From UHGV virus genome UHGV-0334807: a DNA stretch of 42,756 bases; one strand, 5' to 3'. The stretch is from a virus. Positions 38,233 to 41,015 of this stretch are shown in pieces; the first letter of the stretch is position 1, and each line of letters opens with the position of its first letter. Made by a program: the position numbers and the translations under genes. The notes under the pieces were generated by a model, which was not told where the DNA came from, ran no database searches, and was given only the letters and a program-made list of their open reading frames with translations.

Positions 38233-40449
38233 ATGACCATTTTTAACGGCTTGTTAGAAGCGAAAAAAGGCGCGCTCAAAAACGGCGCGATCCCGGCGCT
38301 GGCCATCGCCATCGCCGCCCCTAACAAAAAAGTTGCCGAGAACATCATCATCGGCAAATTGTGGGAAGCCTACCCTGACCACGGCGACAACTATTTCAAA
38401 CCTAAAATCTGGGAAGATGCCCCGGGCCAACCGCGCCCAGGCGTCGGTGAGTTTGATGAGACGTTTGCCACAGAACACAGTTTTGATGGCGAAAAATGGG
38501 TAGTTAACACTCCTGTTGATTCAGATTGCAGTTCAGCAGATATCTCACAGGTTAGCGACCTGATGAAACTGCCGGCTCGTGAACGATTCGCCGCCGTTCT
38601 GCTGTTCAGCCACGACGCCAACGAAGTCGACAGTGAATTGCTTGTGCAGACGCGTGAATACCTGGAGATGCTCGATAACAGTGATACTGACAGTGAGGAT
38701 GAGGTTGACGCGTTTAACCGCATCGTTCTTGATGCCATGGTGGCGTGTAAGCCCATCGAGTACATGCATATTGCTGGATTGAATAATCTGGTACATGCAA
38801 TTTTGGCAAGTTGCGATACCCAGGAACAAAACCCGACCAGTTGGACTATCTCCAAATTTATAAAAAAATGGGTAGAGAATCCCGGTAAACGAGATGAAAT
38901 GCTGCCGGAGGTAAAACCAGAAACAGCATCCGCACGTCCTTACAAACAGACTCACGCCACTCTGGATCGTGAAATTGCCTGCGCCCTGTTACCTGTTGCC
39001 CCGGAAAAAATCACCCCCAGCATCCTGAAAGCGGCAGACGAAATAATCAGTCAGGACAGGGAAGATTTTAAACGCTGGTCAATGGCCTTGCGCACAACGG
39101 ATCAGATCCTTGCCTATGACCGCGCATCAGTATTCGGTGTTATTCAGAGCGCCCCCGCAAAAGACACGTACCACTTCCCACAATCCCTGCGCAGTCACAT
39201 CGACAACTGGCTGCAAGCTAACGGGCAGCGTGATGCAAATGCTGTTGAAGAGAAGCCAAAGGAAGCAGCACCCAAGGATGATGTAAAAGTCACCAACCAC
39301 GGCGGCGGACGATTCTCAATTGATGGGATGATGTCAGAAACACCCTCAAATCAGGGCGAAAAAAGCGAAGCTGCAAATGCTGGAGAACGTAGTTTGCAGC
39401 AGTTGCGTGAGCAGTTTGTCACGCCTCGCCATGTGTATGACGTACCTGAAAATAACGCCGTATCACAGAGGGAACCTGCAGCTATTACCCTGGCAGAAGA
39501 GACTCCTCCACAAGAACAACTTAGCGAGCAGGTAAAGGATCTGGTGCAGAACGTTGACGCGCTGGTTGAGCGGATCCATGCCGAAGAGCACAAGCGGCAG
39601 AATGCAATCTCAGCTATCGAAACGGAGTTAAAGGACTCAGATGACACGGATAACCTGGCATTGTGGAAGAACGTATTCAAAACCGATGAGCGCTTCACCA
39701 GTGCTTTCTCTCAGAATGGCGGCGGCACATCCATCAACGGCACTTATATAGCGATGAAAGCGACTCGCGAATTTGGGCCATTTGGTATTGGCTGGGGGGT
39801 AGAGGTGCTGGAGGAGCGCTTTGATAAAGGCGCACCAATAGTTCGCAAAAAACAGGTTGGTGAAAAAATAGAATGGGATCTGATTCAAGACGGTGTTGGC
39901 GGGTACCTATGTGAAATGCACCACACCATGAAAGTGAGAGTCTGGTACATATTGAATGGGGTACGCGGTGAGTCCGAGGCTTACGGATGCACACCTTATA
40001 TCTACGACACTAAATACGGACCAACAAGCGACGGCGAAGCACCGAAGAAATCCTGGACGGATGCTGTTAAGAAAGCGCTATCCCCTCTCGGATTCAGCGC
40101 CGATATTTTCATGGGCCTGTACGACAATCCGGAATACCGCCAGAGGAATAAAGCTGAGTTTGATATCAAGAATGCCAGCGAGAATGCGGAAGATGCTACC
40201 CGTCTGCGTAAGGAACTGGATGAGAAGCTTATCAACGTTGCCAATACGCTGGCCGCCGCGGTAACCGCCAACGAAGTAAACAAGGTATTTGGCCTCATCG
40301 CCCGCGAAGTGGATGTACACAGGAAAGCAGCGGAAACCAAAGGCGATAAAGAATATTCATCGTATCTGGGATCACGTCTGCGCCGTATCACCGACATTAA
40401 AACTGAACGCCTCGCCGCCCTTACCGCTGCACAGGAGCAAACAGCATGA
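38233..40449 (+). CDS. large protein with C-terminal Rad52-like single-strand annealing domain; N-terminal about 480 aa unknown
   Basis: C-terminal region has REFGPFGIGWG and SWTDAVKKALSPLGFSADIFMGLYD, resembling Rad52/Sak-family motifs; N-terminal region acidic, no recognisable motifs. Confidence 0.5.
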   Translation: MTIFNGLLEAKKGALKNGAIPALAIAIAAPNKKVAENIIIGKLWEAYPDHGDNYFKPKIWEDAPGQPRPGVGEFDETFATEHSFDGEKWVVNTPVDSDCSSADISQVSDLMKLPARERFAAVLLFSHDANEVDSELLVQTREYLEMLDNSDTDSEDEVDAFNRIVLDAMVACKPIEYMHIAGLNNLVHAILASCDTQEQNPTSWTISKFIKKWVENPGKRDEMLPEVKPETASARPYKQTHATLDREIACALLPVAPEKITPSILKAADEIISQDREDFKRWSMALRTTDQILAYDRASVFGVIQSAPAKDTYHFPQSLRSHIDNWLQANGQRDANAVEEKPKEAAPKDDVKVTNHGGGRFSIDGMMSETPSNQGEKSEAANAGERSLQQLREQFVTPRHVYDVPENNAVSQREPAAITLAEETPPQEQLSEQVKDLVQNVDALVERIHAEEHKRQNAISAIETELKDSDDTDNLALWKNVFKTDERFTSAFSQNGGGTSINGTYIAMKATREFGPFGIGWGVEVLEERFDKGAPIVRKKQVGEKIEWDLIQDGVGGYLCEMHHTMKVRVWYILNGVRGESEAYGCTPYIYDTKYGPTSDGEAPKKSWTDAVKKALSPLGFSADIFMGLYDNPEYRQRNKAEFDIKNASENAEDATRLRKELDEKLINVANTLAAAVTANEVNKVFGLIAREVDVHRKAAETKGDKEYSSYLGSRLRRITDIKTERLAALTAAQEQTA

Positions 40450-41015
40450 GCACTGCTATCGCTATTGCAAAAGAATATGCCAGTCTGATTGACCTGTTAG
40501 AAACCGCCGATGAACTGACGCCAGAGATGATCGCCGACACGCTTGAAGGCATGGAAGGAGAACTGGGAGACAAACTGGACGCCATGATGGTCATCTGCCG
40601 TAATTTACAGGGCAATGCCAATACCTGCGCTGAAGAAATGTCTCGCCTGGCAACCCGTAAGACGTCCTTTGAAGGCAAGGAAAAAGCAATTCGAAAGCAT
40701 ATGCTCACCTGCCTGCAAGCTGCTGGCCTGGATAAACTGAAAACCGCAAAAAACACATTTACTGATGCACAGGGGGCTATCCGGGTAATTATCGATAGCA
40801 AAGATAAGATCCCGGATGAGTATGAGGGCGTGTCACTTGTTGATGTAGAAACGGTTATTACACCAAACAAGCGAGCCATTAAAGAAGTGATTGAATCTGC
40901 GGAGGCGGTTGCCGCCGAAATACTGGCGCGTGGAGAAACACCACCAGCCGAGTTATTAAACCCGGTACCAGGCGCACATCTGGAACGCGGCGAACGGTCA
41001 CTGAGGATACGCTAA
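40446..41015 (+). CDS. Gp157-like recombination-module protein
   Basis: 189 aa ending ...GERSLRIR with KIPDEYEG motif, matching the recalled siphovirus Gp157 pattern; overlaps the annealase stop by 4 bp. Confidence 0.45.
   Translation: MSTAIAIAKEYASLIDLLETADELTPEMIADTLEGMEGELGDKLDAMMVICRNLQGNANTCAEEMSRLATRKTSFEGKEKAIRKHMLTCLQAAGLDKLKTAKNTFTDAQGAIRVIIDSKDKIPDEYEGVSLVDVETVITPNKRAIKEVIESAEAVAAEILARGETPPAELLNPVPGAHLERGERSLRIR

What the first reader, a model, noticed from the sequence alone, without database searches (positions are those of the whole stretch)
38233..41015. Rad52-like annealase domain fused to a long unknown N-terminal region, followed by a Gp157-like protein
The recombination module has no separate exonuclease. 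The annealase-like motifs (REFGPFGIGWG; SWTDAVKKALSPLGFSADIFMGLYD) occupy only the last 250 or so residues of a 738 aa protein whose acidic N-terminal 480 aa has no motif I recognise. The next gene, overlapping by 4 bp, ends in SLRIR like siphovirus Gp157-family proteins that accompany annealases in Gram-positive phages. The N-terminal extension could be a novel nuclease, a host-nuclease inhibitor or an anti-defence domain.
Basis: partly seen in the sequence, partly recalled or inferred. Interest (0 to 1): 0.5.

Follow-up and report, generated by a model that had tools for sequence, protein, structure and literature searches.

The report
RecE-type N-terminus fused to Rad52-like annealase
An E. 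coli prophage gene encodes a DNA strand-annealing protein of the Rad52 type joined to the poorly understood N-terminal region of the RecE exonuclease, which shows that this region is a portable module that carries different DNA-processing enzymes.

Summary
A 738-aa ORF (38233..40449, +) overlaps by 4 bp a 189-aa Gp157-family gene (40446..41015), in the early-left operon of an E. coli prophage found in 464 of 5,426 complete genomes.

The "unknown" N-terminus is not novel and shows no nuclease signature. Residues 1-340 are homologous to the N-terminal, non-nuclease region of RecE/exonuclease VIII (profile-profile probability 98.4%; NCBIfam RecE model, E 2e-12). The function of that RecE region is still unknown. 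The same platform occurs with three different C-terminal effectors: a RecE-type PD-(D/E)XK nuclease, a DEDD 3'-5' exonuclease, and this annealase.

Stand-alone annealase plus Gp157 pairs occur in two Pseudomonas phages and one Vibrio phage. A four-gene cassette (p106, annealase, Gp157, p60) is conserved in about 65 of 80 related viral loci.

The upstream p106 protein ends in a tip like the SSB C-terminus (DELPY / ESDIPF).

I could not confirm that Gp157 resembles Mu Gam.

Verdict: new variant of a known kind, moderate interest.

The parts
37882..38202 (+). p106: a 106-aa protein encoded immediately upstream (30-nt gap). It has no known family and ends in an acidic tip resembling the SSB C-terminus (...TPDTDELPY).
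   Evidence: ORF. phrog_2479 'unknown function', no Pfam match. No similar solved structure by sequence. Found upstream of the fused annealase in 72 of 80 viral loci. 60 of 66 distinct homologues end in [DE]x[ILV]P[FY]. E. coli SSB ends DFDDDIPF.
38233..40449 (+). The whole 738-aa gene: a RecE-type N-terminal platform, an acidic linker, a Rad52-fold annealase and a helical tail.
   Evidence: RefSeq WP_000151806.1 'hypothetical protein'.
38233..38922 (+). Module A (aa 1-230): an alpha/beta subdomain (aa 1-93) plus a helical subdomain (aa 110-225). It is homologous to RecE aa 12-224 (Pfam Exonuc_VIII-type N-terminus).
38923..39252 (+). Module B (aa 231-340): a helical domain homologous to RecE aa 261-375. 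This is the module found in most relatives (53 of the 78 representatives of at least 450 aa; another 15 match only the RecE counterpart).
   Evidence: NCBIfam PRK09709 exodeoxyribonuclease VIII, profile positions 262-370, E 1.9e-12. phrog_607 and phrog_2082. BLASTP to K-12 RecE 263-332. Domain map of 144 representative clusters.
39253..39642 (+). Acidic, variable linker (aa 341-470), not modelled except its first five residues. It ends in a conserved helix-like stretch, LSEQVKDLVQNVDALVERIH.
   Evidence: Composition. Poor conservation apart from two short pieces.
39283..39333 (+). Conserved short linear motif in the linker, VKVTNHGGGRFSIDGMM. Consensus: (I/V)xNLGxGxFS(I/V)(D/E)GL, then SN(Q/E)GEK.
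   Evidence: Occurs once each in 37 of the 144 representative clusters, and in 8 of 8 further full-length homologues checked, whichever C-terminal effector they carry. Absent from K-12 RecE.
39643..40128 (+). Rad52-fold single-strand annealing core (aa 471-632), with FGPxGxGW and (E/D)APKKSxTDAxKKALSxLGFxAD signatures.
40129..40449 (+). C-terminal helical tail (aa 633-738), made of three long helices. It is basic (pI 8.5). It is a candidate partner-binding domain.
40446..41015 (+). Gp157-family protein (189 aa), translationally coupled to the annealase gene (ATGA overlap).
   Evidence: PF05565 E 9e-29. phrog_253. Directly follows the annealase in 77 of 80 viral loci, in Stenotrophomonas phage BUCT708, and after the stand-alone annealase in the Pseudomonas phages PseuP_222 and Marin and the Vibrio phage D96a.
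41015..41197 (+). p60: a 60-aa protein, the fourth conserved member of the cassette, with a faint CsrA-like signal.
   Evidence: phrog_2482. Pfam CsrA E 0.097, below cut-off. Conserved downstream of Gp157 in most viral loci.
41407..41670 (+). DUF4224 / excisionase-like gene, followed by the integrase (41609..42655). Both mark the prophage end. Context only.
   Evidence: PF13986 E 1e-14, phrog_1266 excisionase, Phage_integrase. tRNA-Leu/Cys/Gly and pgsA lie beyond the integrase in L001.

Best explanation
**What it is.** The 738-aa gene encodes the single-strand annealing recombinase of a lambdoid-type E. coli prophage. It is built as a fusion.
- Residues 471-632 adopt the Rad52/Sak beta-beta-beta-alpha fold. 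They are expected to form oligomers that bind ssDNA and anneal complementary strands without ATP.
- Residues 633-738 form a helical tail.
- Residues 1-340 are a homologue of the N-terminal, non-catalytic region of RecE (exonuclease VIII).
- A ~130-residue acidic linker carrying a conserved short motif joins the two halves.

**How the platform likely works (inferred).** The RecE-type platform is not a nuclease. It is a portable module that occurs with different C-terminal effectors: a PD-(D/E)XK 5'-3' exonuclease in RecE, a DEDD 3'-5' exonuclease, or this annealase. It most likely delivers or assembles whichever effector it carries at a common target, such as DNA ends or a host or phage partner protein. 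It does not contribute chemistry.

**How the cassette likely works (inferred).** The gene works inside a conserved, co-transcribed cassette: p106, annealase, Gp157, p60. The phage encodes no exonuclease of its own. The ssDNA substrate would therefore come from host nucleases or helicases, or from replication forks. Gp157 would act as an accessory protein, possibly in end protection. p106 would act as an adaptor through its SSB-like tip.

**Shown:** domain identities, homologies, fusion variety and gene linkage.
**Inferred:** annealing activity, oligomerisation, the targeting role of the platform, dependence on host nucleases, and the roles of Gp157, p106 and p60.
For: **Annealase**
- High-confidence model (pLDDT 92.4).
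- A profile of the domain aligns to RAD52 residues 49-158 and places conserved T-D and K-K on RAD52 T148-D149 and K152-R153.
- Stand-alone homologues of 220-290 aa exist in Pseudomonas, Vibrio, Sulfitobacter and Pelagibacter phages. Some carry Pfam PF04098 or are named Rad52-like.

**Platform**
- The NCBIfam RecE model hits aa 233-336 (E 2e-12).
- Module A against the RecE N-terminus by hhalign: probability 98.4%.
- Only 144 clusters in 1.84 billion representative proteins match the N-terminal 470 residues.
- Their C-termini are mosaic. For example, P0186 and the L033 ORF (814 aa) combine Pfam Exonuc_VIII with this annealase at 70% identity. P0208 and P0218 carry an Rv2179c-like DEDD exonuclease. 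P0191 and P0193 carry a PDDEXK domain.
- No nuclease family or fold was found in aa 1-345.
- RecE's N-terminal region is described as of unknown function and dispensable for nuclease activity, yet it enhances linear-linear recombination (PMC11611040, section 2.3).

**Cassette**
- Gene order and overlaps are conserved down to about 50% identity and in phage BUCT708.
- Annealase-Gp157 pairs occur in two Pseudomonas phages and one Vibrio phage.
- No exonuclease is annotated in the region.
Against: - Sequence-level matches to Rad52 are individually weak (PDB E 0.18; Pfam 13.6 bits against a cut-off of 20.3). The assignment rests on a predicted structure.
- One position that is lysine in about 90% of homologues (FTK) is serine here.
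- Nothing tested here shows what the platform binds. Its inter-domain arrangement is uncertain (pTM 0.38).
- K-12 RecE lacks the linker motif.
- Gp157 showed no detectable relationship to Mu Gam in my tests, so 'end protection' is only an annotation-level guess.
- p106 is absent from the RecE_N-type annealase fusion (L033) and from a platform::DEDD phage. Its link to the platform is therefore not general.
- In at least ten complete genomes (many labelled ST131) the gene is interrupted by an IS element. It is therefore dispensable for the lysogen.
Confidence: 0.7

Rival explanations
1. The N-terminal 470 residues are a host-nuclease inhibitor or anti-defence module. One possibility is an acidic DNA-mimic or decoy that blocks RecBCD or a defence nuclease. 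On this reading the protein both protects DNA ends and anneals them, which would explain the missing lambda-Gam-type gene.
For: - The region is strongly acidic (net -30, pI 4.8).
- The linker is low-complexity and carries a conserved short motif typical of protein-protein docking.
- Full-length RecE, which has the homologous region, specifically improves recombination between two linear molecules (PMC11611040). That is compatible with end protection.
- No lambda-Gam-type gene is annotated in the operon.
Against: - No similarity to any known inhibitor (lambda Gam, Abc2, gp5.9, Ocr) appeared in the Pfam, PHROG or NCBIfam scans or in the PDB and BFVD fold searches. I did not scan PADLOC.
- The folded parts (aa 1-93, 110-225, 241-332) are ordinary globular domains, not an elongated DNA mimic.
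- The same platform is fused to nucleases, for which an inhibitor domain is less obviously useful.
Confidence: 0.13
2. It is a conventional fused exonuclease-annealase. The N-terminal region would be a divergent nuclease that resects DNA ends for the C-terminal annealase, as in the RecE-RecT fusion proteins.
For: - PHROG families covering the protein are labelled 'exonuclease' (phrog_2489, 607, 2082).
- One RefSeq homologue is named 'exonuclease family protein' (P0011).
- A RecET fusion protein is on record (YP_512292.1, mentioned in PMC8766483).
- No separate exonuclease gene is present.
Against: - The 'exonuclease' labels are inherited from RecE, whose nuclease is the C-terminal domain (residues 564-866; PMC11611040). 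The protein here matches only RecE residues ~12-375 and nothing in 601-866.
- No Pfam nuclease domain was found.
- BFVD gave nothing.
Confidence: 0.04
3. The fusion has no special function. The N-terminal region is a decaying remnant of a RecE-like gene into which an annealase gene recombined, and only the C-terminal annealase matters.
For: - Prophage early regions are highly mosaic.
- Stand-alone annealases of this family work without the extension in other phages.
- In at least ten E. coli genomes an IS element disrupts the N-terminal half and leaves the 3' part annotated as a fragment.
Against: - Full-length ORFs of 650-815 aa with modules A and B are kept intact across homologues that have diverged to about 30-40% identity in the N-terminal part.
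- The folded subdomains are predicted with high confidence.
- The linker motif is conserved in 37 of the 144 representative clusters.
- That pattern indicates purifying selection rather than decay.
Confidence: 0.05

Closest known systems
Rad52-superfamily phage annealases of the Sak / Rad52_Rad22 type (lactococcal phage ul36 Sak, staphylococcal phage 80alpha Sak, human RAD52 N-terminal domain, yeast Mgm101)
   Different: The known members are stand-alone proteins of about 200-270 aa, or carry unrelated C-terminal regions in eukaryotes. This one has a 470-residue N-terminal extension homologous to RecE. It scores below the Pfam PF04098 threshold (13.6 against 20.3 bits).
RecE / exonuclease VIII of the Rac prophage (E. 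coli K-12 b1350)
   Same: Residues 1-340 are homologous to RecE residues ~12-375. An acidic linker follows in both. The gene sits in the same place in a lambdoid early-left operon near xis and int.
   Different: RecE ends in a PD-(D/E)XK nuclease domain and is followed by recT. Here the nuclease domain is replaced by a Rad52-fold annealase, and the next gene is Gp157. Nothing here matches RecE 601-866. K-12 RecE lacks the NLGxGxFSxDGL linker motif.
Platform::DEDD exonuclease proteins of lambdoid phages (phrog_2082, for example the 823-aa 'exonuclease' of Escherichia phage HannyBb or the Stx2 phage PPompW 'putative exonuclease')
   Same: They share the N-terminal platform modules A and B and the position upstream of xis and int.
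   Different: Their C-terminal effector is an Rv2179c-like 3'-5' exonuclease (PF16473). No Gp157 or p106 gene is adjacent.
RecE-RecT fusion proteins (YP_512292.1 in the Lopes et al. set; phrog_561)
   Same: A single polypeptide combines RecE-derived sequence with an annealase.
   Different: Those proteins fuse the RecE nuclease domain to a RecT-family annealase (RecE 597-860 matches phrog_561). The protein here fuses the non-nuclease RecE N-terminus to a Rad52/Sak-type annealase.
Lambda Red (Exo, Beta, Gam) and P22 (Erf, Abc1/2, Arf) recombination modules
   Same: These are early-left operon recombination modules of temperate enterobacterial phages, built around a Rad52-superfamily annealase plus accessory proteins that deal with host nucleases.
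   Different: No Exo-type nuclease and no lambda-Gam or Abc homologue is present. The accessory genes are p106, Gp157 and p60, and none of them has an established function.

Membership tests
Rad52-superfamily single-strand annealing proteins (Rad52/Sak type) | Beta-beta-beta-alpha DNA-binding core fold | tested here: met
Rad52-superfamily single-strand annealing proteins (Rad52/Sak type) | Conserved basic residues on the core helix that line the ssDNA groove (RAD52 K152/R153; their role is from my knowledge of Kagawa et al. 2002) | tested here: met
   The HMM alignment places the query consensus ...TDAvkKal... on RAD52 T148 D149 ... K152 R153. K136, K137, T140 and D141 are invariant and K145 nearly invariant among 64 homologues.
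Rad52-superfamily single-strand annealing proteins (Rad52/Sak type) | Significant match to the Pfam Rad52_Rad22 model (PF04098) | tested here: not met
   13.6 bits, E 0.063, against a gathering score of 20.3. 4 of 10 homologues match weakly (best E 0.0012). Some stand-alone homologues have PF04098 on record. So this is a peripheral member by sequence.
Rad52-superfamily single-strand annealing proteins (Rad52/Sak type) | Oligomeric ring or filament formation and ATP-independent annealing of complementary ssDNA | not testable with these tools
   Needs biochemistry or electron microscopy.
RecE / exodeoxyribonuclease VIII | C-terminal PD-(D/E)XK 5'-3' exonuclease domain (RecE 564-866) | tested here: not met
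   No BLASTP or HMM match to RecE 601-866. No PF12684 or other nuclease Pfam match. The NCBIfam equivalog scores 46 bits against a cut-off of 1269. The protein is therefore not an exonuclease VIII, despite the PHROG 'exonuclease' labels.
RecE / exodeoxyribonuclease VIII | N-terminal Exonuc_VIII-type region and central module (RecE ~1-375) | tested here: met
   hhalign probability 98.4%, E 9e-15 for aa 14-224 against RecE 12-224. PRK09709 profile positions 262-370 match aa 233-336, E 1.9e-12.
Siphovirus Gp157 family (PF05565), downstream gene | Match to the Pfam model above its gathering score | tested here: met
   101 bits against 28.6, E 9.2e-29, covering aa 6-156. All 5 aligned homologues match. 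The C-terminal AHLERGExSxRI motif is shared by three of the four aligned homologues.
Mu Gam / Ku DNA-end-binding proteins (proposed for Gp157 by the PHROG label) | Detectable homology to Mu Gam | tested here: inconclusive
   hhalign of Gp157 alignments against Mu Gam: probability 2% and 0.5%. Mu Gam falls in phrog_491, not phrog_253. The profile search of the PDB found nothing.
Bacterial SSB (for p106) | OB-fold ssDNA-binding domain plus an acidic C-terminal tip ...DDDIPF | tested here: inconclusive
   The tip is present and conserved ([DE]x[ILV]P[FY] in 60 of 66). No SSB or OB-fold family matched. The structure was not predicted.

The most novel reading that the evidence does not exclude
The RecE N-terminal region, whose function has been unknown for decades, would be a portable 'recombination hub'. 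It would dock any of several DNA-end-processing effectors (5'-3' nuclease, 3'-5' nuclease or annealase) onto one shared target. In this prophage it would operate in a nuclease-free recombination system that borrows host enzymes. The small upstream protein p106, through its SSB-like C-terminal tip, would recruit or compete for clients of the host SSB tail, such as RecJ, RecQ or ExoI. Those enzymes would generate the ssDNA that the fused Rad52-type annealase pairs.
Probability: 0.2. Interest if true: 0.75.

Novelty: new variant of a known kind. Interest (0 to 1): 0.55.

Why it matters
RecE/RecT is a workhorse of recombineering and direct cloning. Full-length RecE is used specifically because its N-terminal ~560 residues boost linear-linear recombination, yet that region is still described as a domain of unknown function (PMC11611040).

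This work shows that the same platform is naturally combined with an annealase, a 5'-3' nuclease or a 3'-5' nuclease. Its role must therefore be independent of the effector, such as targeting, tethering or partner binding. That makes the question directly testable through domain swaps and pull-downs.

The work also corrects a widespread mis-annotation. These proteins are labelled 'exonuclease' in PHROG-based annotations, while RefSeq calls them 'hypothetical'.

It defines a conserved four-gene cassette present in about 9% of complete E. coli genomes and in many Salmonella genomes.

It also flags p106, a small protein with an SSB-tail-like tip, as a candidate adaptor to the host SSB interaction network.

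The annealase itself could be a compact new recombineering tool for enterobacteria.

Tried and rejected
1. Two of the three large homologue searches returned only near-identical Salmonella and E. coli full-length proteins in the top 120. They gave no diversity. The representative-cluster search and a search seeded with the Pseudomonas stand-alone homologue solved this.
2. Megablast of the two genes against the phage collection found nothing. Only protein-level searches worked.
3. A single-sequence search of the PDB with the whole protein gave only chance hits.
I rebuilt the alignment from accepted proteins.
5. The afdb50 fold library was unavailable. BFVD gave no hit with E < 0.2 for the N-terminal model.
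6. I tested Gp157 as a Mu Gam homologue three ways, without support. I checked whether the diverged 'Gam' of the Pseudomonas F8/PB1 phages (PMC12407980) is a Gp157-family protein. No such phage appeared among the 40 listed rows or the named organism groups of the 280 Gp157 tblastn hits, so I dropped that link.
7. I asked whether RacC (upstream of recE in Rac) or the small genes upstream of a platform::DEDD gene (phage HannyBb) are p106-like with an SSB-like tip. They are not.
8. A paper that appeared to discuss RecE and defence systems matched only on the word 'recent'.
9. The precomputed Pfam accession PF27430 on all full-length homologues could not be named with the local Pfam copy. By exclusion it covers the N-terminal or central part, because the stand-alone annealases lack it.
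Full report
**1. The observation**

The window holds an ATG-started ORF of 738 aa at 38233..40449 (+). A 189-aa ORF at 40446..41015 (+) ends in ...GERSLRIR. The two overlap by ATGA. Residues 1-470 are acidic, with pI 4.8 and net charge -30.

The region belongs to a prophage integrated next to tRNA-Leu/Cys/Gly and pgsA-uvrC. The 3.9-kb stretch around the two genes occurs in 464 of 5,426 complete E. coli genomes, mostly at 99% identity or more. RefSeq calls the 738-aa product 'hypothetical protein' (WP_000151806.1). 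In at least ten genomes an IS3-family element interrupts the region; in the one I examined (strain S14) the insertion lies within the 738-aa gene.

**2. The C-terminal third is a Rad52-fold annealase**

Stand-alone proteins of 220-290 aa from Pseudomonas, Vibrio, Sulfitobacter and Pelagibacter phages align with residues 474 to ~720 at 28-40% identity. An example is Pseudomonas phage PseuP_222, E 1e-49. The invariant signatures are FGPxGxGW and (E/D)APKKSxTDAxKKxLSxLGFxAD.

Sequence links to Rad52 are weak but consistent:
- A profile of the domain finds human RAD52 residues 49-158 at E 0.18. It superposes the T-D...K-K of the core helix on RAD52 T148-D149...K152-R153.
- Pfam Rad52_Rad22 is matched below threshold in 4 of 10 members.
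- Several stand-alone homologues carry PF04098 in precomputed annotation, or are named Rad52/22 family.

The other high-scoring hits are helical bundles. They match the three long helices of residues ~633-738.

**3. The N-terminal part is the RecE N-terminal region, not a new unknown and not a nuclease**

The PHROG scan gave full-length phrog_2489, labelled 'exonuclease'. It also gave partial hits of aa 232-333 to phrog_607 and phrog_2082, which are RecE-like proteins of 820-880 aa. The NCBIfam exodeoxyribonuclease VIII model matches aa 233-336 at its positions 262-370 (E 1.9e-12). BLASTP to K-12 RecE aligns aa 243-308 with RecE 263-332.

An exhaustive HMMER search of 1.84 billion representative proteins with aa 1-470 found only 144 clusters. 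Mapping these against pieces of the query and of K-12 RecE shows a mosaic family:
- an N-terminal module, either 'A' (query aa 1-230) or 'RecE_N' (RecE 1-260, Pfam Exonuc_VIII);
- a widely shared central module 'B' (query 231-340, equivalent to RecE 261-375);
- a variable acidic linker;
- one of several C-terminal effectors.

Modules A and RecE_N are themselves homologous. hhalign of 39 against 24 sequences gives probability 98.4%, E 9e-15, aligning query 14-224 with RecE 12-224.

The effectors identified are:
- the RecE-type PDDEXK nuclease (P0191, P0193);
- an Rv2179c-like DEDD 3'-5' exonuclease (P0208, P0218);
- the Rad52-fold annealase described here;
- a group (phrog_26058) whose C-terminus matches nothing.

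P0186, and an independent 814-aa ORF on viral contig L033, combine a bona fide Pfam Exonuc_VIII N-terminus (E 5e-77) with this annealase at 70% identity. The platform has therefore been joined to the annealase more than once, or has been exchanged.

The AlphaFold model of aa 1-345 (pLDDT 81.5, pTM 0.38) shows:
- an alpha/beta subdomain (aa 1-93, pLDDT >90);
- a helical subdomain (aa 110-225);
- a second helical domain (aa 241-332).

[quoted passage not shown] It adds that the nuclease domain substitutes genetically for the whole protein, and that full-length RecE is better at linear-linear recombination (PMC11611040, section 2.3). The 'exonuclease' labels on this protein are thus inherited from the wrong half of RecE.

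The precomputed Pfam accession PF27430 is present on all full-length homologues but on none of the listed stand-alone annealases. It must therefore cover the N-terminal or central part. I could not retrieve its name.

**4. The linker**

Residues 341-470 are poorly conserved except for two pieces.

The first is a short motif, VKVTNHGGGRFSIDGMM...SNQGEKSE. Its consensus is (I/V)xNLGxGxFS(I/V)(D/E)GL. It occurs once each in 37 of the 144 representative clusters, whether the effector is the annealase or a RecE-type nuclease, and in all 8 further full-length homologues checked. K-12 RecE lacks it. Its position in a disordered acidic segment suggests a docking peptide. The partner is unknown.

The second piece is a helix-like stretch just before the annealase domain (aa ~430-455).

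**5. The surroundings**

The gene lies in a co-oriented, tightly packed series: p106 (37882..38202), the 738-aa gene, Gp157, p60 (41015..41197), a DUF4224/excisionase-like gene, and the integrase. This corresponds to the early-left operon of a lambdoid phage.

Among 80 related viral contigs, with annealase identity from 49% to 100%:
- Gp157 follows the annealase directly in 77;
- p60 follows in 70;
- p106 precedes in 72.

The same order is found in Stenotrophomonas phage BUCT708. A stand-alone annealase followed at once by a Gp157-family gene is found in the Pseudomonas phages PseuP_222 and Marin, and in Vibrio phage D96a where the neighbour is annotated 'Mu Gam-like end protection' and aligns with Gp157 at only 18% identity.

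Other relatives have different neighbours. Pelagibacter phage HTVC035P has a putative nuclease next door. Vibrio phage VvAW1 has a DEDD exonuclease and a CsrA-like gene downstream.

No exonuclease is annotated in the operon, or in the ~20 kb of prophage upstream of it, in RefSeq.

**6. Gp157**

Membership in PF05565 is clear. The family is widespread in Gram-positive siphoviruses and also occurs in enterobacterial phages. PHROG-based annotation calls it 'Mu Gam-like end protection'.

I could not confirm that label:
- Mu Gam belongs to a different PHROG.
- Profile comparisons with Mu Gam are negative.
- No solved structure matches by sequence.

The literature I could search gives no biochemical function for Gp157.

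**7. p106**

This small protein has no family. Its last residues are conserved as an acidic run followed by (I/L/V)-P-(F/Y): DELPY, ESDIPF, ESDVPF, DEEIPY. This holds in 60 of 66 distinct homologues, even where the rest of the protein is only 27% identical.

E. coli SSB ends in ...DFDDDIPF. That tail is the docking site for many genome-maintenance proteins, and phage annealases are reported to interact with it (PMC6393309; PMC13490951, by title and abstract).

p106 is absent from the RecE_N-type annealase fusion (L033), from the Rac recE region (RacC has no such tip), and from a platform::DEDD phage. It therefore tracks this particular cassette rather than the platform in general.

**8. Most likely mechanism**

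Shown:
- The protein is a Rad52-fold annealase domain attached to the RecE-type N-terminal platform.
- The platform is shared by proteins with different catalytic ends.
- The gene is linked to Gp157, p60 and p106.
- No phage exonuclease is present.

Inferred:
- The C-terminal domain oligomerises and anneals ssDNA.
- The platform targets or assembles the effector at a common site, rather than acting catalytically.
- ssDNA is provided by host enzymes or by replication.
- Gp157 and p106 are accessory factors.

I put about 0.7 on this overall picture. Certainty is higher for the domain assignments and lower for the role of the platform.

Rivals:
- anti-nuclease or anti-defence role of the acidic N-terminus, about 0.13;
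- fused exo-annealase, about 0.04;
- functionless remnant, about 0.05.

**9. Novelty**

Rad52/Sak-type phage annealases and RecE are both well known, and a RecE-nuclease::RecT fusion is on record. The fusion of RecE's non-catalytic N-terminus to a Rad52-type annealase was not described in any paper I could find. The same is true of the wider pattern of one platform carrying three kinds of effector. Current annotation is either 'hypothetical' or wrongly 'exonuclease'.

I rate it a new variant of a known kind, with moderate interest (0.55). Its main value is that it makes the function of the RecE N-terminal region experimentally tractable.

Noticed in passing
window 37882..38202 (+): The 106-aa protein upstream of the annealase gene ends in an acidic tip resembling the SSB C-terminus (...DTDELPY). 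60 of 66 distinct homologues end in [DE]x[ILV]P[FY] (ESDIPF, DEEIPY and similar), while E. coli SSB ends DFDDDIPF. No known family or solved relative. It may be an adaptor to, or mimic of, the SSB tail.
   Followed up: partly
window 39283..39333 (+), aa 351-367 of the 738-aa protein: A conserved short linear motif, (I/V)xNLGxGxFS(I/V)(D/E)GL, followed by SN(Q/E)GEK, sits inside an otherwise variable acidic linker. It is present in 37 of the 144 representative clusters whichever C-terminal effector they carry. It is absent from K-12 RecE. The partner is unknown.
   Followed up: partly
window 41015..41197 (+): The 60-aa protein after Gp157 is conserved in the cassette and has a faint CsrA-like signal (Pfam PF02599, E 0.097, below cut-off). 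Vibrio phage VvAW1 also has a CsrA-like gene (COG1551) downstream of its stand-alone annealase.
   Followed up: no
window 36872..37881, both strands: About 1 kb between the repressor-like gene and p106 has no annotated gene in RefSeq. It holds a weak RprA-like Rfam match at 37384..37494 (+) (37 bits against a gathering score of 70, E 0.075) whose 3' end overlaps a terminator-like hairpin (stem 37470..37484). It also holds several terminator-like hairpins on the minus strand at 37630..37738.
   Followed up: partly
L110 (E. coli strain S14, NZ_CP107114.1), locus 1597..2766: In at least ten complete E. coli genomes an IS3-family element (ISEc52 or IS150) interrupts this region. In strain S14, the one examined, it is inserted in the N-terminal half of the 738-aa gene, leaving a 424-codon 3' fragment annotated as incomplete.
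   Followed up: partly
proteins P0189, P0205, P0216, P0264 (phrog_26058), from the representative search: A group of 560-670-aa proteins carries the same N-terminal platform (module A plus the RecE-type central module). Their C-terminal ~200-250 residues match no Pfam family and no known effector. This may be a fourth kind of effector.
   Followed up: partly
all full-length homologues: Precomputed Pfam accession PF27430.1 is attached to every full-length homologue, but it is missing from the local Pfam copy and from the listed stand-alone annealases. Its name and boundaries could not be determined.
   Followed up: partly
L001 5325..6211 (the equivalent stretch of this prophage in strain SK1144): The nin-like region has DUF1367 and DUF1364 genes just before the Q antiterminator. 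From memory, DUF1364 (YbcO-like) proteins are putative nucleases. This is the only nuclease-like candidate I noticed in the early region, and it is not part of the recombination operon.
   Followed up: no
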